A model generated the notes under the pieces. It ran no database searches, was not told where the DNA came from, and worked only from the letters and a program-made list of their open reading frames with translations. Positions 8,385 through 52,327 of a stretch of DNA of 64,000 bases are shown one piece after another; positions within the stretch are counted from its first letter, which is position 1, and every line of letters starts with the position of its first letter. The DNA lies in the NCBI GenBank assembly GCA_951406725.2, contig OX597815.1:35030001-35094000 (forward strand), read 5' to 3'. A program made the translations under genes and the position numbers. This DNA comes from Octopus vulgaris. Lineage: Eukaryota.

Positions 8385-9128
8385 CCTATATGTAGTAAAA
8401 TATCTATGCATTTGTGTGTCACGTTTTGTTGTAATTGAATAGCATCTAGCCATTTCAATCTTTGGGAGAAAATCCCTGTCTCGCAATAATTCTCTCCCTG
8501 CCTTCCTGGACACCAGAATGTAAAGAGCCGCAAGAGGAACCCAACGGTTTTATAAAATCACCCCATTAGAACGCTCAGGTTTGGTAATTTTTTAAATTTT
8601 TTATCGACGTCGAAATAATAAAAGGTACAGTTGACTTCAACAGGATTTCAACTCGGAGCGCAGAGATTCAAAACAGCTACCCATATTTAAATAAGACAAT
8701 ACCGTACAATTCATTTTCAATATCAGTGTTGATACCAATATTTGGGATATTCAACTGGTCTACAGGGAAAATTCGCTCTATATACATTAAAATCTGCAAG
8801 ATCCTGACATAAACTGCAAATTTTCATATACAACGACACTCTATCTCAGATGAAATGCGGGGGAAGATGTTTGATATTAGTACAAGCAGCCTTCGAATAC
8901 CGTTTAGCACCTGCTAAACAATAGTAGTAGAAATAAATATATGGACTACGTGCTCAAAAAAGAAATGAATAGTATCCTTCGGATTGGTGTTGAATTCATC
9001 AAGAATCAATTCTTGATAATCTCTCATACAAATCTATAAGAGCAGGGCTCGCATATCTATAAAAATAAAAATAAAAATACCTGGATGAGAAAATCTCTGC
9101 ATACCATAAAAATGCTATGCATGGATAT

Positions 9129-9435
9129 CACCGTGATCACCGTGATCACTGTGACTGACCAGGCTATCAGATGTTGCAACATACCGCTGGTCACAATGCG
9201 CTTCGCATTGTTTTAGCCTTCAAATGGCGCCAGCCCGCTGGCTAAGCGAGCAGGCCAACAGAAGAAAGAGTGGGAGAAAGTTGTGGCGAAAGAGTACAGT
9301 AGGAATCGCCACCACCCCCTACCGGGGCCTCGTGGAGCTTTTAGGTGTTTTCGCTCAATAAACACTCACAACGCCCGGTCTGGAAATCGAAACCGCGAGT
9401 GCGCTGCCCTAACCACTGGGTCATTGCGCCTCCAC
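9129..9435 (-). mobile_element. tRNA-derived SINE family B, tail variant 2, with 12-bp TSD
   Basis: Head (ggaggcgcaatgacccagtggttagggcagcg...ggtttcgatttccagaccgggcgttgtgagtgtttattgagcgaaaacacctaaa) shared with 16697-17088. TSD atgcatggatat at 9117-9128 and 9436-9447; 3' end has short gtgatcac(a/g) repeats. Confidence 0.85.
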
Positions 9436-9599
9436 ATGCATGGATATGTTTCTCGTAAATTTGAAAACGATGACAATATTCACATGAAGTGGAGCAGCTT
9501 TTGGATTTGTAACCAATATATCACCTCACTTCTTGAATTCTACGCTTAGAAATCCAAGAGCAGGTGACAGCTACGAAATATTTCATTCAAAAGGGTAGC

Positions 9600-10335
9600 T
9601 ACAAAGGATTAAGGTACTCTTCTATTGAGTATATAATACATGTTGCCAGCAGCTACCTAGAATATCATCGAGATACTATTCTTACAGTGACATGGTGTTG
9701 ACACCAAAATAATGTACCATACCACCTGCAGAAAAGACTGCCTGATACGAATATAGACAATAAATTTGCTATCAAATACATACATACTTATCAGCAAAAA
9801 ATAATTTTTGTGGAAAATACTAATCAAAATTTCTACGAGGCGCAAACAAAACAGACTTAGCATAGTCATTCAGGATACAAAAAAAAATCCATGTACAGTT
9901 ACAGACTTTAGTAGTTCTGCAGATGTGAACATATCTTCCAATATCAATGAGAAAGAAAAGATCTACAGACAACTTCTTCGAAACCTGCAGCCCTTCTGCC
10001 TTGGTTATGAAGGTACATTTATAACAATAATTATTTGAGTGCTTGGTTACGTTAGTAAATGACCAAGCAACTACCTGCACAAAACTAGGATTTTCACACA
10101 AAGAAACACACCTGCTTACACGAATTTTACAGCAAATTCTGTAAGTGGAACAGTAAAAATATAGAAGAACTTCTTAAAGTTCAATATGTGACAATTCTCG
10201 TTTTTGCTATCCAAATTCTAGTACTGGAGCTTTTATTATTTTTTTTATTTATTTCATTTTTTAAAAAGTAGCTCCTCTTTCTAGAAAAAATACTAACAAA
10301 ATACTAATTTTTTAAAAAAGTGGAAGCATACGTAC
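9600..10335 (+). mobile_element. Decayed 3' portion of an RLE-type non-LTR retrotransposon (R4/Dong-like): endonuclease domain, C-terminus and 3' UTR
   Basis: Translation WKILIKISTRRKQNRLSIVIQDTKKNPCTVTDFSSSADVNISSNINEKEKIYRQLLRNLQ...FITIII*VLGYV resembles the restriction-like endonuclease pattern (NRPDIV..D...C..ID.S.P.D.N...K..EK...Y..L...PIIIGALG). Ends SVSGTVKI*KNFLKFNM*; a (TACA)n array follows from about 10450. Confidence 0.75.
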
Positions 10336-10449
10336 ATAGATGACTACTGTATCGTCTAAATTCTAATGAAAAATCCTTGTTTCTGGGTTAGGAAGAATCT
10401 TTTTTCATTTGTGAGAAATTCGAAAAATAAAAGTACAAGAACGTTCAAT

Positions 10450-10522
10450 CATACATGCATGCATACATACATTAATACATACATGCACACATTCATAATA
10501 CATGCATATATACATACATACA

Positions 10523-10556
<34 letters not shown>

Positions 10557-10713
10557 CATACATACATACATACATACAAATGCTTACGTACGCACATACA
10601 TTCTTACATGCATGTATAAACTTACATACTACACATATATGTGCGCATACTTACATACATACATACACACATACATATGCTTACATACATACATACATGC
10701 ATACATACATACA

Positions 10714-10744
<31 letters not shown>

Positions 10745-10875
10745 GCTTACGTACGCACATACATTCTTACATGCATGTATAAACTTACTACACATATATG
10801 TGCGCATACATACATACATACATACATACATACACACACACTTACATACATACATTCATACATACATACATACAC
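10450..10875. repeat. (TACA)n array with an internal duplication of about 165 bp
   Basis: The block atgcttacgtacgcacatacattcttacatgcatgtataaactta occurs near 10580 and 10743. Confidence 0.85.
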
Positions 10876-27353: not shown

Positions 27354-28269
27354 TTAGGTGACATTGGGATATAATTTACCGCAGGCATTTTTCCGTTGTG
27401 CCTCTCGGCAATGCACTTAATTCTGGTTGCTACAATTGATCACGGCATCTGGAACGAGCAATATACATGACAATGTGACACTCTAACAATTATCAAACCT
27501 GCCTTCCGTTATGACTCACATCTGAAAACTGTCTGAACGCGAATGCTGTTTACTTATCCTCCATGTGTGCATGTGTATGTGTACAGAGAGAAAGAGAGAG
27601 TGATAGTAGAGATAAAAATTGCGTCTAATCACGTAATGAAATGGGTATATACAATAAGTGCTCATGATGGCTTACCTCTGAAACTCCAATTTGAACTACG
27701 ACTAAAACAAAAGTGGTGTTGTAGTGTTCTAGGATTGAATGGTTATAAGTGATTTTCTTCATTAAGCGTGTAGGTATATATCAGAAAAGGAAACGGAATA
27801 GGCAAAGCGTGTGGTATCACTTTAGAGTATGGATTTAATAACTTAAATATAATTGTAGAGTGGCTACAATGGAGTTGTTTGAGTATAAAGTATCATTTAA
27901 ACAAGGGAGTAAGAAGTTGTGAATGAAGTCTCTTTTTATATCAGTTTCTAGAATAACTGCACGCGTGGTAGATATCTCAACGAATGAAGATTTCTTTATA
28001 GAAGCCAACTGTACCTTCTTTAGATGGAAATAATTAAGAATATCCTTATTAAAATATATTCGTAGTTCCCAGTCTATCATCTACCTACATACCTACCTAC
28101 CTACCTACCTACCTACCTACCTACCTACCTACCTACCTACCTATCTACCTATCTACCTACCTATCCAGCTATCTATCTTTATGTGTTTGTGTGTATGTGT
28201 GTGTGCATACATATATATAAATATACACATACATACACACATACATACACACATACATACACACTCGAA

Positions 28270-29530
28270 GCGACAAGTCGAATGTTTGGCGTGTGAGGCT
28301 ATTTATCGAAAATACAATGAATACGACCTCCATCTTTGAAGTCACAACTATTAGACCTGCTAAATAACTGGTTAACCTTCAGATGAATTAACTGAGAGAG
28401 CCTTTTATTTACGACCGTAGAAAATTTCAACTGAAACTTGATTTTACCATGCAATGAATTATTACATGACTGGATATGACAACACCAACAACACAACTGA
28501 GGAACACATATCTCACTGGTTCACAGGGAAACAGAAATACTGAAATTACATACTACTTCTTTGTGGATGCCTTGAAACTGTATGCCCAGAATACGCATGA
28601 GATGAAAAAAAGCCTTGACCTGGTTACAACATTCTCAAAGGATATAGGGTTGGAGTTTGGTTAGAATAAATGTTGCTATACAGTTATGAAAAGAGGGAAA
28701 ACTGTAAAACAGACTAACATGTCTATCAATGAATTAACTGTTTCCCCTATATCTGATGAGGAATGTTATAGGTATCTAGGGATGGATGAAAACCTCATAC
28801 GATGGTATCCATAAGAAGATACGTGTCACTAAAGAATATTACAGCCAAATAAGGAAAATATGGACCTCAGAACTCACTGCATTCTATAAATAGTGGCCTA
28901 CAATGTGTTTGCGGTACCAGTACTCATATCAAAATTTGGGCTACATGATTGGACGTTTGATGAGACCCGAACCATTGATATGAAAACTCCGAAGCTACTG
29001 ACCAGCACCAACAATTTTCACATCAACAGCGACGTAAATTGCCTCTTCGTTATACGAAAACAAGGAAGCAGAGGCTGAACATCGATTCCTATACTGCTTT
29101 TGAATGTCATATATCTCTTCGGCAACATTTTCTAACCACCCAGTGTCGAAGTGCATCCCTTGATCAAGTTTGCATACACGAGATAGATATCATGAGACTT
29201 GGAAAGCAGCTCCCTGAGCAACACTCCTTGTCTGATAACCTTAAATACACACCCAAAGATTCGCAAGATTTTACCGCAACGTATCATCAGGCGAGAGGAT
29301 GAGCAGAAGACCATGCATGGATATATTAGAAAGCTCTAAGACGAGAAAGTGGGCTTCTCAAACCCAAAAAGGAGAAAGCTGATTCGAAGACTACAGGCCC
29401 AAGCCATCACTGCAACTGTAAAACTTTGTAAAACTTTCCAGAAGTTTACCATTTAAGTATATATGTGCATGTCTAAACATGCAAATATAAGCATGAGAAT
29501 ACATACATAAAACAAAGCATACAAATCTAC
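28270..29530 (+). mobile_element. Decayed, internally deleted RLE-type LINE (R4/Dong-like) RT region joined to the C-terminus
   Basis: FFVDALKLY...LDLVTTFSKDIGLEFG*NKC (cf. YMDDLKLY..FSxDIGMxFGLxKC), YRYLG, KEYY..IRKIWTSEL, AYNVFAVPVL..FG..DWT, RKQGSRGL (cf. RxxGGRGL); ends KLIRRLQAQAITATVKLCKTFQKFTI*. Stops and frameshifts present. Confidence 0.85.
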
Positions 29531-30377
29531 ACATTTCGTGATTGTTCTGATGCGTTTTCATAGATGGAGATCCAGCCTCAAGTCTCTGGTGATCCTCTGG
29601 TGATCCGTAGATAAGGTCGGCTTTTATTGGTCAGAGTAGGTCACAAGGGTAAAGATGCCGTTGGCAATATTCGTTTCTCGGGATGACTGCCGCTCAAAGG
29701 AGCGTATACGTCAGCTTGATCCTTTAGATCATACAGCTGAGGGATCAAATTGACCAGGTGTAAAACATCAACGCTCAAGCTGTCACCATCCCTTCGAAAA
29801 GGACGAGGTACTTTGCTGATGTTGGCGGTGGTACTGGAGCTATTGATTGTTGTGATGTTGGTATTGTTTGGTTCTTGAGCTGATGTAGGTTTAGTTGTTG
29901 TGATGGTGGTGTTGGTGTTGTTTGGTGTGGTGGTGGTGGCAGTGGTGGTAGTGGTGGAGCTGATTGTGATGCTGGTTGTTGTCGCTGTTGTTTTGCTATT
30001 ATTGTTGTTGGTGGTGGTGGTGGTGGTGGTGGTGGTGGCGGCGGTGGTTGTTACTATGGTTCTGGTGTATGTAGTGTGGTGGAGGTGGTTGTGCTATGTG
30101 TGTTACTATAGTGATAGCAGTTGTAATGGTTCATGGTGTTGTTGCAGTAGTAATCCCTGTTGCGGGAGTAAGAGTGGTGGTGACGGTGGTGGTGACGGTA
30201 TTCTTATATGTTGTATTATTATGATTAGTGGTAGTAGTTGCAGAAGAAGTAGTCGTAGATATGTTAGTGGGAGTAGTGATGATGGTAGTAAGGGTCGAGG
30301 TGGTTTGTTTTGTTACACTATAACAGGATTAAGGTGTTAGTGTTAGATATTACTGATAACAGTTTTGATGATTTTAA

Positions 30378-43060: not shown

Positions 43061-43443
43061 TTTTCTATTTTTGTACAATCTGAGCCTTCTGGAGATATTT
43101 GGAAAGGTTCCTGCAGCAGTTACTAAAACATCACGAAGGTTTTATCCGCTGAATCACTCAAAAGCATACATTCAAACGAATCTGACGTTCACAGCAATAC
43201 GTGTGTATGTGTGTATACAATTTTTTTCGATATCTTTTATCCTAGCACCAAGACAATACTTATACTATTCAAAATACCACTGCTATTTCCATACTTGGCT
43301 TAACTTCCGTTATAAAAGACCACGAGGAACTAACTGACATCATTTCCAGGAATGTGACATATCGAATCTAAAGGACCTATCTTCTGGAACGTGACAATGC
43401 AAATAATAACGGGTTCTTTTCAAACATTAAGAATAATGATTTT

Positions 43444-43676
43444 AAAGGCGGCGAGCTGGCAGAATCGATAGCACGCCGGGCGAAATGCGTAGCCGTATTT
43501 CGTCTGCCGTTACGTTCTGAGTTCAAATTCCGCCGAGGTCGACTTTGCCTTTCATCCTTTCGGGGTCGATAAATTAAGTACCAGTTACGCACTGGGGTCG
43601 ATATAATCGACTTAATCCGTTTGTCTGTCCTTGTTTGTCCCTCTCTGTGTTTAGCCCCTTGTGGGTAGTAAAGAAA
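43444..43676 (+). mobile_element. SINE family A, intact young copy with 16-bp TSD
   Basis: ggcggcgagctggcagaatcg..gagttcaaattcc (A/B boxes); TSD taagaataatgatttt at 43428-43443 and 43677-43692. Confidence 0.92.
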
Positions 43677-44307
43677 TAAGAATAATGATTTTGTTAAAAT
43701 TATGATGATTGGTGTATATAGTAATAATAAAATAATAAAACAAATGTTTGAGTAAACAAAACAGGTGTGCAAAACAAATTAGTAATCTTCTCTTGATTTT
43801 ATTTTTTAAAAATACTCCGAATAAAGATCAGCTCTAATATAACTGTAACATGACTGTATTGAATAGGGCGATAATTTTGTAAAGAATCGACTAGTTCGTA
43901 CCCTTTACAATTCATTCTATAGTCCATCACTAATGGTGGATACGCGACATTAAAATAAGACAATGAAATATCTTTTTAATATTTCAAGAGAAACTACGAG
44001 GGAATTGTCAAGTTCTTCCGGGAAGCATTTAAAGCTGTTTTTTTTCTTATTTCGCTGCTCTACCTACCTACGTCCCACCCACCTACCTACCTACCTATCT
44101 ACCTACCTACCTACCTACCTACCTACCTACCTACCTACCTACCTACCTACCTACCTACCTACCTACCTACAAACCTACCTACCTACCTACCTACCTATAT
44201 ACCTACTTACCTACCTTCCTACCTACCTATGTTCATACATACAGACATACATGCATGAGTGCATGCGTGCATGTATACATACATACATACATACATACAT
44301 ACATGCA

Positions 44308-44745
44308 TCTGGGAAATCTAGGGTTTGCTGGAAAAGAAATTAACAAGTTAACACGCATATTACGAATAAAATCTTTATAGAATAAAATCTGTGAGCGAAA
44401 CGCTTAATGTGTACAAAACTTTTCTAAAGTTTAAAATGTGAATTTGTTTTTGTTATCTATATTCCAATGATGGACCCTTGTATCATTGTTAAAATCAGCT
44501 CCTTCTTTACTAGAAGATTTCAAATAATCAAAAATAAAAAGAAGGCCGGCTGATTCGTACATTGCAAGTCAAATCTGTGAGTGGAACAGTAAAAATATGC
44601 AAGAATTTTCTCAAGTTCCAAATGTGAATTTGCCTGTGTTAACTACATCCCAAAGATGAAGCCTTGTATCTTTGTTGGAAACCGGCTCCCTCCTTAGTGG
44701 AAGATTTATAATAATTAAAAAAACATAGAAGAGACATACATACAA
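44308..44745 (+). mobile_element. Two tandem 3'-end fragments of the RLE-type LINE
   Basis: C-termini LGFAGKEINKLTRIL..VYKTFLKFKM* and RLIRTLQVKSVSGTVKICKNFLKFQM*, each followed by a related 3' UTR; (TACA)n before and catacatac after. Confidence 0.75.
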
Positions 44746-44915
44746 GAGCGAAAAAAAAAAACTCGCTGTTGGTTCTAGGAACCGACTGAAATCATATTGG
44801 AACGATCTGCATCCAGAATTAAATCATTTTAGTGCGAAGCAACCACGCCAACAAGCAACATTTGTGGAACATAGGAAGACATTTAGTGAATGTATGTATG
44901 TATGTATGTTTGCGC

Positions 44916-45152
44916 ATGTATGTATATATGCCATTTGTGAGATTTCTCGTGAGTGCTACTGGTAACATGGAATCTAGTACAACCTGTTACATGGTTTATT
45001 TAAAAAAAGATCTGAAATTAATATATATATAAAGCCTAGTGGGAGTACAGGTTGAGACGGCGACAACCCGACCATGTAACAGGTTGTACTAGTAGCACTC
45101 ATGTTACCAGTAGCACTCATGAGAAATCTCACAAATGGCATATATACATACA
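44916..45152. repeat. Near-perfect inverted repeat (arms of about 80 bp, 75-bp spacer)
   Basis: tatatgccatttgtgagatttctc.tgagtgctactggtaacatg...ctagtacaacctgttacatggt versus its reverse complement starting at 45071. Confidence 0.9.
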
Positions 45153-45185
45153 TACATACATACATACATACAAAAATACACTATT

Positions 45186-45600
45186 ATTGATGTTGAAATT
45201 GCAATGAAGGAGTCTTGTATCTAGGTTAGAAAGCGGTTCTTTCTATATTGGCAAGAAATCTTGAAATAAAACTGAACAATGACATGCATACATACAAGCG
45301 CACTATAATGGTTTGGCCTAGATTATAAATTTACATTTAAATTTGTATCTTTAATTACTAAGGTAAAGATTAAACTAGAGAAGTCGGCTTTCCAGAAAGT
45401 AAACATCTAGTTTGTATTCTGAAAACTGTAAAGCGAACTGTGAAAATATGTAAGCCATTTTTCTGACATTCAAAATGTAACTTTTCAATGTTGTATCTAA
45501 ATTCCAGCAATGAAGCTTTGTTTGTTTTTTAGAAATCAGCTCCCCATTTATGGGAAAATTCAAATGTAAAAAGATAGAGACAGATATAAATAGATACACA
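45186..45600 (+). mobile_element. RLE-LINE 3' UTR fragment (45186-45282) and a further C-terminus plus UTR fragment (about 45375-45600)
   Basis: 45186-45282 closely matches 46236-46332; the second piece encodes VGFPESKHLVCIL..TVKICK..FKM*; both are followed by TACA repeats. Confidence 0.7.
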
Positions 45601-45637
45601 TACATACATACATACATACATACATACATACATACAT

Positions 45638-45704
<67 letters not shown>

Positions 45705-46132
45705 TACACGAATACATACGTGAATATACACACATACAGAAGTCACTGAAATTACAAGATAAGTATTTATCTAAACCACTTATGATAACGATGTGTATAA
45801 AATCTCTATTACAATTGCAGCTGAAAGTTACCAGATTTTTTTTTTTCTGTAGACTTAGGCTAAAGAATAATTCTATAGTCTTCAAGAGTGTGTGTGTCAA
45901 TAGATATTATTATAGCCAACTATTTAGAGCAGAATAATAACACATTTTAATCTGTATGTATTACCTCGTTTCTTCGTTTCCTTCTTCCTTTCCTTTCCGC
46001 AGTTTCCATCTCCTGTTACACACATAAACACATACACGCTCGCACATATACATACGTACATACACACATACATACATACATACATACATACATACATACA
46101 TACATACATACATACATACATACATACATACA

Positions 46133-46166
<34 letters not shown>

Positions 46167-46235
46167 CATACGTACATACGTACATACATACATACATACA
46201 TACATACATACATACATTCATACATATACATACAT

Positions 46236-46332
46236 GTTGATGTTGAAATTCCAATGAAGGCGACTCGGATCTAGGTTAGAAACCAGCTCTTTTTCTATTG
46301 GCAAGAAATCTTGAAATAAAACTGAATAATAA
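46236..46332 (+). mobile_element. RLE-LINE terminal 3' UTR fragment embedded in (TACA)n
   Basis: gttgatgttgaaattccaatgaagg..gatctaggttagaaaccagctct..ggcaagaaatcttgaaataaaactgaataataa, with (TACA)n on both sides. Confidence 0.75.
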
Positions 46333-46646
46333 CATACATACATACATACATACATACATACATACATACATACATACATACATACATACATACATGGATT
46401 ATGCATGATTATGGACTTGCAGTGTTATAAATTGCAATGCAGTCGAGAGTGTGCTCAATACTGAGAGTAGAGTTGAGGAACATTTGTTCAAATGTGACTC
46501 TATGTGACACGCTCCTCAATGTTTCTCGACTTCGATCCTTAAATAGCTGAATATCCACACATAATTTGTCTTTCATACACTGGATCAGGCGTATTTCTTT
46601 GTATCAGTTGACAACTAAATATCTAAATAAATATATATACATAATT

Positions 46647-50517: not shown

Positions 50518-52327
50518 GAAACTGGTCGACAAGGCGCAAACATGCGCCGTGCCAGGCCGGACCATCCATGACAACCTCCATCTGATGCGCTACATCATAG
50601 ACAGGGTAGTTAACGAACCTGGCATGGGTGGGGCCCTGATCAACTTGGATCAATCGAAAGCCTTTGATAGGGTAGACCATCGATACTTGGGGGCAGTCCT
50701 GAGAGCGGCTGGTTTCGGTCCCGTTTTCCGCGGATGGATAGCTGCCTTGTACAGAGGCATCCGTTCGGTAATTCGCGTAAATGGACATCTATCGAGACCT
50801 TTTGACATTGCACGTTCGGTCCGTCAGGGATGCCCCCTCTCGGCGCTTCTATACGTATTGACTCTTGAGCCACTACTGCGGAAGCTGGCGACTCTAAGGG
50901 GCATCCCGCGAGAATTGGGATGCGGGACGAGCGTGTCTGCATACGCGGACGACGTCACCGTCATAGTGTCTAGCCACGAGCACATCGAGCTGGTCGGCGA
51001 GACACTGAAAAACTACGAAGCGGTTACAGGAGCGAAAATCAACCGGGAAAAGTCAGTGGGCTTGCGACTAGGCACCTGGAGAAGCAAGCCCATGCCGTCC
51101 ACCAGCGCCTCCGTCGTGGGACGCTGGACCGACGGCCCGGTTGAGTTGCTCGGGGTCTGGTTTGGTCCGGACCTCCAAGTGGAGAAGAACTGGAACGAGA
51201 TAACGAGTAGGGTGGTCACTCTCGCCCGGCAATGGGCCGAGAGGAAACTGTCCCTAAAAGGTCGAGCGGAGGTGGCGAACACGTACATCGCGTCCGTCAT
51301 CTACTACCGCCTGACCGTCGTACCTTGTCCCGACCCTACCATCACCAAACTACAACGCATCCTCTTTCGCTTCTTGTGGAAAGGATGCGTCCCGATGGTC
51401 AGGCGATCCATTTGCTGTCAACACCCGTTAAAAGGAGGGCTGGGCATGCCGTGGTTGATGATGCGCAGACACGCGCTGAGACTGCGGCATCTCTGGCTCT
51501 ATGTAGACGACGGTGAACAGGTGTGGTCGCCGTTTGTGAGGCACGCTTTCCCGCAGCTCGTCTCCATGACCGAACTGCAGTCGTGGATCAAAAAGAGGCC
51601 GAGGAAGGGCGAATGGCACCGCGAGTGTCGCGTTGCTCTCAAGCAACTCTGCCGTCCTGGGTCGACCTTAAGTGACTTCAACACAACCAAAGCATTCTAT
51701 AGGGGTTTAGTGGAGGGGAGGTACGACGACGAGCTCGGGGCGAACCTGGACGTCGACGAGGAGTACCTGACCCGCCTGTTCAGGACGACTTTCGGGCCAG
51801 GGCCCATGGACAACTTCCAGAGATCCCTGGCCTGGCAGTGCTACCGAGAAGCGCTACCCGTTCGGGATAAGCTCTACAGACACGGCTCGAGAAACACGGG
51901 GCCGACCTGCCCGAGATGCGGTCAGAGCGACGAAACCGTTCTGCACGCACTCGTTCAGTGTCCAACAATTTCCGACCTGTGGGCTTATGTCGAACAACTG
52001 CTGTCACGTGTGGGACGAGTCGGTTTATCAGCTGAGTCTATCGTCAATATTGTCACGCCTCCTTCCTTCAAACGGGAAGGAAGAGCTATTTTCATCATCC
52101 TTGTGGCTATGGCGAAAGAATGTATCTGGTGGACGCGTCTGAAAGGATTGGAGACAAACACTTTCCTCTCTGGTCAATCTCTCATCAACTTCTTCAAGTA
52201 CCACTTGAAAAGGAAAGTGAGAGTAGAGAGGCAAGTTTTGTCTAGCGAATGTTTTAAAAAAAGATGGGTGAATGTAGCAAGAATGGCACGTATGAATGAC
52301 GAAGCCACCTTGAGCATAGTCCTATGA
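50516..52327 (+). CDS. Truncated ORF2: reverse transcriptase plus C-terminal zinc-binding domain (603 aa, no endonuclease)
   Basis: QTCAVPGRTIHDN, LDQSKAFDRVDH, SVRQGCPLS, AYADDV, KINREKS, LLGVWF, LSLKGR, KGGLG and CPRC..ETVLHALVQC (zf-RVT-type CCHC); no stops or frameshifts. Confidence 0.92.

What the first reader, a model, noticed from the sequence alone, without database searches (positions are those of the whole stretch)
44270..46395. Nest of five RLE-LINE 3' ends interleaved with (TACA)n: second microsatellite-linked retrotransposon
Seen: within about 2 kb, three diverged C-termini (consensus like SVSGTVKICKTFLKFxM*) and two UTR-only pieces, all on the plus strand and abutting plus-strand TACA repeats (one directly abuts the next copy). 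The larger relics at 9600-10335 and 28270-29530 share the C-terminus, orientation and TACA neighbourhood. Known: RLE-bearing R4-clade elements can be microsatellite-specific (Dong inserts in TAA repeats). Inference: repeated insertion of different subfamilies into one locus suggests (TACA)n targeting, and TACA tails could in turn seed the window's dominant microsatellite. Caveat: some TACA may be internal to the 3' UTR.
Basis: partly seen in the sequence, partly recalled or inferred. Interest (0 to 1): 0.7.

Follow-up and report, generated by a model that had tools for sequence, protein, structure and literature searches.

The report
TACA-targeting branch of Dong retrotransposons
The stacked fragments are leftovers of an old, apparently dead jumping-gene lineage that sits inside TACA repeats in one fixed orientation, likely because it targets them, whereas its known relatives (including a young family in the same genome) use TAA repeats.

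Summary
The nest is real, but its anatomy needs correcting. It holds five 3' ends of one RT + zinc-knuckle + RLE LINE lineage (R4/Dong-like). The two 'UTR-only' pieces are the terminal segment of family F, whose 3' UTR contains an internal TACA array. Targeting is supported genome-wide: 58 of 134 mapped 5' junctions lie on same-strand (TACA)n, 2 of 134 on the opposite strand, against 0.8% background. One copy sits inside a pre-existing TACA array of another copy. A young Dong-like family in the same genome uses TAA (12 of 15; TACA 0). The lineage forms one well-supported branch; its metagenomic relatives are flanked by (TACA)n or (TACT)n, while distant Dong-like elements have (TAA)n. The idea that the tails seed most TACA arrays is not supported (5 of 88 arrays adjoin the lineage). 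No intact copy was found. I found no paper and no earlier scan note on this target for R4/Dong; Repbase could not be searched. Verdict: new variant of a known kind.

The parts
44234..44304 (+). (TACA)n array upstream of copy A
   Evidence: TRF 44234-44308; sequence
44305..44545 (+). Copy A: 5'-truncated 3' end of an old subfamily (ORF C-terminus, stop, 3' UTR); tail missing
   Evidence: Aligns to family copies from 44307; best genome matches 78-85%
44546..44744 (+). Copy B: 5'-truncated 3' end of family B, with ACATACATACA tail at 44734-44744
   Evidence: 91% to long copy L032 over 44546-44735; 40 listed genome matches at 91-100%, self included
44745..44885 (+).
   Evidence: 86% to full-length L223; tblastn to P0009 residues 32-83, E 7e-8
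44886..45170 (.). Inverted pair of 5' ends of an RTE-type LINE (arms 44934-44995 and 45032-45135), each with a TGTA/TACA array on its outer side; not part of the RLE lineage
   Evidence: Inverted self-match; relative L386 continues into an APE-like ORF (Pfam Exo_endo_phos E 0.019, below cut-off); RTE label from recalled motif
45171..45295 (+). U1: terminal 3' UTR segment of family F with ACATGCATACATAC tail
45317..45640 (+). Copy C: oldest 3' end (DNA alignment from 45372; start at 45317 read by eye from an LDYKFTF motif) with TACA tail at 45598-45640
   Evidence: Best genome matches 71-84%; 45269-45595 is held by single contigs of three runs
46030..46395 (+). (TACA)n array, U2 (46236-46331, terminal segment of family F), (TACA)n tail
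8690..10325 (+). Interrupted older copy of the lineage: RT pieces, RLE region, 3' UTR
   Evidence: blastn and tblastn
10345..10874 (+). Further terminal segment followed by a long TACA array
   Evidence: Profile hit 10349-10437; TRF
28206..29532 (+). TACA array, then an internally deleted family F copy: true 5' end (28263-28506), RT part (28508-29336), C-terminus and proximal 3' UTR (29343-29532)

Best explanation
The pieces are truncated copies of an old R4/Dong-like LINE lineage (one ORF: reverse transcriptase, CCHC knuckle, restriction-like endonuclease) that lie in (TACA)n arrays in a fixed orientation, likely because the element nicks the TGTA strand of such arrays and primes reverse transcription of an RNA predicted to end in ACAU repeats. 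SHOWN: domain order; strand-specific TACA at 5' junctions and at 3' ends; one insertion into a pre-existing array; one branch in the tree whose flanks are TACA or TACT instead of TAA. INFERRED: target-primed reverse transcription as in R2; nicking of the TGTA strand; that the N-terminal three-helix domain and/or the endonuclease reads the repeat. Each insertion leaves TACA on its 3' side, and family F carries an extra TACA array inside its 3' UTR. Copies therefore offer landing sites to later copies, and same-strand nests like this one build up over time. 'UTR-only' pieces are likely F copies whose 5' junction formed at, or collapsed onto, that internal array.
For: 5' junctions with a run of at least 10 bp of same-strand TACA within 40 bp: family B 23/38 and 13/24, F 13/26, A-like 7/27, C-like 2/19 (58/134). 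Opposite strand 2/134; random background 0.8%; 400 bp further upstream 5/124; full-length F 5' ends 22/29. SINE 5' ends as control: 0/186 and 4/124. In-genome control: young intact family Y has TAA at 12/15 junctions and TACA at 0/15. Empty sites: L034 is a B copy inside the internal TACA array of an F 3' UTR, with 60 empty paralogous matches; L135 has an empty-site match with TACA. Only 10/134 junctions have another lineage 3' end within 400 bp upstream. Neighbouring 3' ends are same-strand 45 times and opposite 4 times. Lineage = one branch with support 100. Four of 8 close metagenomic relatives carry arrays: L393 TACA at both ends, L392 TACT at both, L391 and L397 TACT at one; none has TAA. 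Of 37 distant relatives with a mapped C-terminus, 19 have TAA tails and none has TACA or TACT. Structure model of relative P0007 (pLDDT 83.8) matches R2 proteins best.
Against: 57% of mapped junctions show no TACA run, and the signal is weak in the oldest set (2/19; p 0.01 to 0.07 by threshold). A and C junctions were mapped with diverged B references. Some junctions are (AC)n instead (6/26 F, 5/27 A), and one empty site (L120) holds only AC repeats, so specificity is loose (ACAY-like). Only three informative empty sites were found. Upstream arrays of B tend to be longer than downstream ones (median 29.5 vs 13.5 bp, p 0.046), which insertion at a random point of an array does not predict. No intact G000 copy was found (stricter search), so activity is untested. 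Four of 8 close relatives show no array.
Confidence: 0.8

Rival explanations
1. The 5' TACA is made during integration: the reverse transcriptase stutters on, or jumps to, the repeat tail of an RNA, or repair copies the tail, at sites that needed only a short ACAT seed.
For: Upstream arrays are often longer than downstream ones in B; the L120 empty site has AC repeats only; some copies directly abut another 3' end, as A|B here.
Against: The L034 and L135 empty sites already hold TACA. Only 10/134 junctions have another 3' UTR upstream, which template jumps would produce. The TAA family shows the same two-sided pattern that is accepted as targeting for Dong.
Confidence: 0.12
2. No targeting: random insertions with TACA tails accumulate passively in microsatellite-rich regions, and 5' TACA is chance or later recombination.
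For: The window is TACA-rich (4.2% of 40-bp windows on +, 1.9% on -); 57% of junctions lack TACA.
Against: 58 vs 2 strand asymmetry; loss of signal 400 bp away; SINE controls near zero; family Y shows TAA and never TACA.
Confidence: 0.03
3. The 'UTR-only' pieces are an independent short non-autonomous element rather than truncated F copies (concerns U1 and U2 only).
For: 12 of 30 best matches have no proximal F UTR within 700 bp, and many start at the same point.
Against: 18 of 30 are linked to the proximal F UTR (15 within 250 bp); the shared start is the edge of the internal TACA array; no separate head or promoter was seen.
Confidence: 0.15

Closest known systems
Dong (R4 clade; Bombyx mori, Anopheles, Biomphalaria, Darwinula)
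   Same: RT plus restriction-like endonuclease, no N-terminal zinc finger, N-terminal helical domain, microsatellite on both sides (PMC7998251 and PMC3812793, passages read). Family Y in G000 fits this type.
   Different: Target is a tetranucleotide (TACA, TACT in some relatives, some AC slack), not TAA; separate long-stemmed branch, about 40% RT identity to the TAA group; C-terminus S[VI][ST]GTVKICKTF.
Waldo (WaldoAg1/2, WaldoFs1)
   Same: Published target ACAY repeats (PMC3812793, passage), the same repeat class.
   Different: APE-type endonuclease (R1 clade, from the cited title); here an RLE element, so the shared target would be convergent.
Togen, and microsatellite-specific HERO families
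   Same: RLE LINEs with microsatellite targets; Togen uses (TG)n (PMC4640811, passages).
   Different: NeSL/HERO-related; not included in my trees, so the relationship was not tested directly.
R2
   Same: Best sequence and fold matches in PDB; model for the mechanism.
   Different: R2 has N-terminal zinc fingers plus Myb and targets 28S rDNA; about 18-20% identity.
Cephalopod 'Dong-R4' repeat annotations
   Same: Dong-R4 is reported as abundant, with 5 recently active families in Octopus vulgaris (PMC13282606; also PMC8967140, PMC9115989).
   Different: No target site is given in the parts I read; 'target' has 0 hits in the main text of PMC13282606.

Membership tests
R4/Dong clade | Single ORF with non-LTR reverse transcriptase | tested here: met
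   RVT_1 E 6e-22 on G000 copy L055; full-length relatives about 1150 aa
R4/Dong clade | C-terminal CCHC knuckle and restriction-like endonuclease (PD..E), no APE | tested here: met
   CRLC..H....C and [RK]PD[IL]V..[IV]E[VF]SCP in P0007, P0009, P0139 and in G000 copy L032; no APE hit
R4/Dong clade | No N-terminal zinc finger | tested here: met
   No C2H2/C2HC pattern in the first 420 residues of P0007, P0009, P0139, P0041
R4/Dong clade | N-terminal Myb/SANT-like domain | tested here: inconclusive
   Three confident helices at 25-77, aligned with the N-terminal motif of the TAA group; no Pfam Myb hit; the isolated model was too poor to search
R4/Dong clade | RT groups with named R4 and Dong references to the exclusion of R2, NeSL, HERO, CRE | tested here: inconclusive
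   Nearest groups are TAA-flanked elements and insect proteins; no named R4/Dong sequence and no RLE outgroup was available
Dong proper | Inserts into (TAA)n | tested here: not met
   TAA at 0 of 134 junctions
R4/Dong clade | 5' HDV-like self-cleaving ribozyme (PMC3774820) | tested here: inconclusive
   No Rfam hit; my descriptor found 0/30, but with no working positive control
Waldo (ACAY-specific) | APE endonuclease | tested here: not met
   RLE architecture, no APE domain
Target-specific RLE LINE | Sequence-specific nicking by the encoded protein | not testable with these tools
   Needs a biochemical assay

The most novel reading that the evidence does not exclude
A deep, undescribed branch of R4/Dong retrotransposons, present in several unrelated animals, switched from the trinucleotide TAA target to tetranucleotide (TACA/TACT)n, converging on the ACAY target of the APE-bearing Waldo elements. 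One family carries its own target inside its 3' UTR and so seeds landing pads for its lineage. TAA-, TACA- and TACT-specific relatives form a natural series for mapping what sets RLE target choice.
Probability: 0.55. Interest if true: 0.62.

Novelty: new variant of a known kind. Interest (0 to 1): 0.48.

Why it matters
R4/Dong elements are described as rDNA- or TAA-specific. A branch with TACA and TACT targets, living beside a TAA family in one genome, shows a target switch within the clade. It gives closely related intact proteins with different repeat targets, which makes it testable whether the N-terminal domain, the endonuclease or RNA-tail pairing sets specificity. That question also matters for RLE-based gene insertion tools. 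It also explains these nests as self-seeding rather than as a functional locus. The concept of microsatellite-targeting LINEs is old, and the G000 copies look dead.

Tried and rejected
Tail seeding of most TACA arrays: rejected (5/88). MITE reading of 44884-45183: rejected, since it is two inverted RTE-type 5' ends. Target-site duplications: 4 of 38 B copies gave candidates, all repeat-like, so uninformative. 3' UTR stem-loop (GGAGC..GCTCC with an inner GTT/AAC hairpin): RNAalifold gave no consensus structure; the named structure pairs 87.5% of cells with 4 pairs changed on both sides, but 63/500 shuffles match that count, so it is only suggestive. 5' ribozyme: nothing found. Single-sequence fold of the N-terminal domain: pLDDT 54, not searched. 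The short-peptide search of family F gave no long open frame. Downstream array lengths for family Y were mis-anchored and are not used. The careful tree did not finish; the quick tree is reported. Sequencing-run search: no RNA holder listed. The profile search of protein representatives was not run, so more distant RLE clades were not sampled. Earlier scan notes held nothing on this lineage.

Full report
OBSERVATION. The window lies at G000:C2:35030001-35094000 in a 2.8-Gb animal genome. It is octopus-like: a named Octopus vulgaris protein is 97% identical over 8% of one G000 ORF. Reading 44270-46395 and a profile of the terminal segment confirm five plus-strand 3' ends: A (44305-44545), B (44546-44733 plus tail), U1, C and U2. 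All 7 terminal segments in the window are on +. A content-blind sample of 84 ten-kb stretches held 11 segments in 840 kb, which scales to roughly 37,000 in the genome (wide error). The A|B junction is bridged by contigs in 3 of 4 runs laid, carrying three organism labels. The stretch from the U1 tail through C is held by single contigs in 3 of 4 runs with 2, 5 and 13 differences. The nest is real and old.

ANATOMY. Long copies show what the pieces belong to. Family B copy L032 has RT, CRLCH..H..SSC and PDIV..EVSCP, then SVSGTVKICKNFLKFQM* and a short UTR. Family F (window 28263-29532; full-length example L223) is about 65-69% identical to B in the RT region. Its 3' UTR runs: stop, about 110 AT-rich bases, an internal TACA array, a conserved terminal segment, TACA tail. 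25 of 30 F copies show the terminal segment downstream. U1 and U2 are that segment: 18 of 30 best matches are still linked to the proximal F UTR and 12 are solo. Median pairwise identity is 90.6% for B, 84.4% for F and 78.7% for the A-like set. No intact ORF of the lineage appeared in a search with full-length relative P0007 (which used a stricter first look).

TARGET TEST. Copies were chosen by 3' end or RT similarity, not by flank, and their 5' ends were mapped against repeat-masked long natural copies. After removing self-hits and duplicates there were 152 lineage loci; 18 were dropped (edge of locus, end of reference or no alignment), leaving 134. A same-strand TACA run of at least 10 bp within 40 bp upstream was found in 23/38 (B by 3' end), 13/24 (B by RT), 13/26 (F), 7/27 (A-like) and 2/19 (C-like), 58/134 in all. 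The opposite strand gave 2/134, TAA 0/134, random background 0.8%, and 400 bp further upstream 5/124. Full-length F 5' ends gave 22/29, but these alone could be part of the element. Two SINE families gave 0/186 and 4/124. B 3' ends carry TACA runs of at least 8 bp in 28/38. The P0007 search also exposed a young intact family Y (1235-aa ORF, 98-99% identity). Of 30 Y loci, 15 ran to the locus edge; of the other 15, 12 had TAA upstream and none had TACA. Empty-site search: L034 is a B copy inside the internal TACA array of an F UTR, with 60 empty paralogous matches; L135 also has a TACA-bearing empty match; L120 sits in AC repeats. Adjacent 3' ends in the fetched loci are same-strand 45 times and opposite 4 times (a few loci may overlap). 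Against a simple picture: 57% of junctions lack TACA, AC runs occur at 6/26 F and 5/27 A junctions, and B's upstream arrays tend to exceed the downstream ones (p 0.046).

SEEDING. Only 5 of 88 TACA arrays in the random sample adjoin the lineage in the same orientation, and 1 in the opposite (part of the row listing was cut from view, totals were shown). Older, unrecognisable copies could be missed, but the claim that tails built most arrays has no support.

RELATIVES. A protein search gave full-length relatives of about 1150 aa with the same C-terminus, including an Argonauta hians protein at 49%. A quick IQ-TREE of 49 RT regions puts B, F and these relatives in one branch (support 100, stem 0.74), apart from Y and the insect proteins. 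Of 80 metagenomic loci kept (of 367 relatives), 8 are close (44-52%). L393 has (TACA)n at both ends, L392 (TACT)n at both, L391 and L397 (TACT)n at one end, and four show no array. Among the other 72, 37 have a mapped C-terminus: 19 end in TAA and none in TACA or TACT. In a 56-row FastTree the TACA/TACT label and the TAA label each need one change, support 100 (L397 was too short to include). The hosts of these contigs are not known to me. A structure model of P0007 (pLDDT 83.8) matches R2 proteins best, and its N-terminal three-helix region aligns with that of the TAA group.

MECHANISM. Best reading (0.8): target-primed reverse transcription into TACA/ACAY arrays, with a nick on the TGTA strand and an RNA ending in ACAU repeats. 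Flanks, orientation and phylogeny are shown; nicking, RNA tail and the recognition domain are inferred from R2 (PMC13586686, passages). Whether the protein or tail pairing sets the target cannot be told from sequence. Tails and the internal F array supply new sites, which explains nests. Rivals are synthesis of the 5' repeats during integration (0.12) and passive accumulation (0.03).

KNOWN AND NEW. R4/Dong elements have RT plus REL endonuclease, an N-terminal Myb-like domain without zinc fingers, and a (TAA)n target in most insects, molluscs and cnidarians (PMC7998251, passages). ACAY is the published target of APE-type Waldo elements (PMC3812793, passages); Togen uses (TG)n (PMC4640811, passages). 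Cephalopod papers list Dong-R4 without a target in what I read (PMC13282606 part 1 of 3 and passages; PMC9115989 and PMC8967140 passages). PMC3774820 and PMC13580325 were read as passages. Nine searches showed no TACA or TACT target for R4/Dong. Kojima and Fujiwara 2004, the original Dong paper, Repbase and all supplements were not seen, and could hold such a record. The elements work like Dong, are probably R4-clade members (phylogenetic test incomplete), and are not Dong proper by target. Verdict: new variant of a known kind, interest 0.48.

Noticed in passing
L230-L250, L341-L370 (G000): Young Dong-like family Y with intact 1235-aa ORFs, 98-99% identity, (TAA)n on both sides; its 5' UTR appears to differ between copies.
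   Followed up: partly
window 44934-44995 and 45032-45135; L372-L390: RTE-type LINE family whose 5' end often abuts a TGTA array in its own sense, i.e. the same microsatellite in the opposite orientation; possible second user of this repeat.
   Followed up: partly
window 28268-28340; L391, L392, L393 5' ends: Full-length 5' ends in this lineage begin, right after the repeat, with a short GC-rich inverted repeat; further hairpins follow in family F. Function unknown.
   Followed up: partly
window 44455-44545, 44641-44731, 46243-46333: Terminal 3' UTR segment shared by all subfamilies can form a stem-loop with one pair that switches C-G/T-A between subfamilies; candidate RT recognition element.
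   Followed up: partly
window 50570-51544: Another RT ORF fragment, L1/Tx1-like by motif (label recalled), used only as outgroup.
   Followed up: no
window 43443-43680 and about 9210-9430: Two SINE-like repeats; the second interrupts the old RLE relic at 8690-10325.
   Followed up: no
L042, L090, L093, L106, L158: Recurrent arrangement: SINE 3' end, TACA array, solo F terminal segment.
   Followed up: no
L433, L438, L439, L442, L444: Distant Dong-like metagenomic elements with CAA or TGA runs instead of pure TAA; possible further target drift.
   Followed up: no
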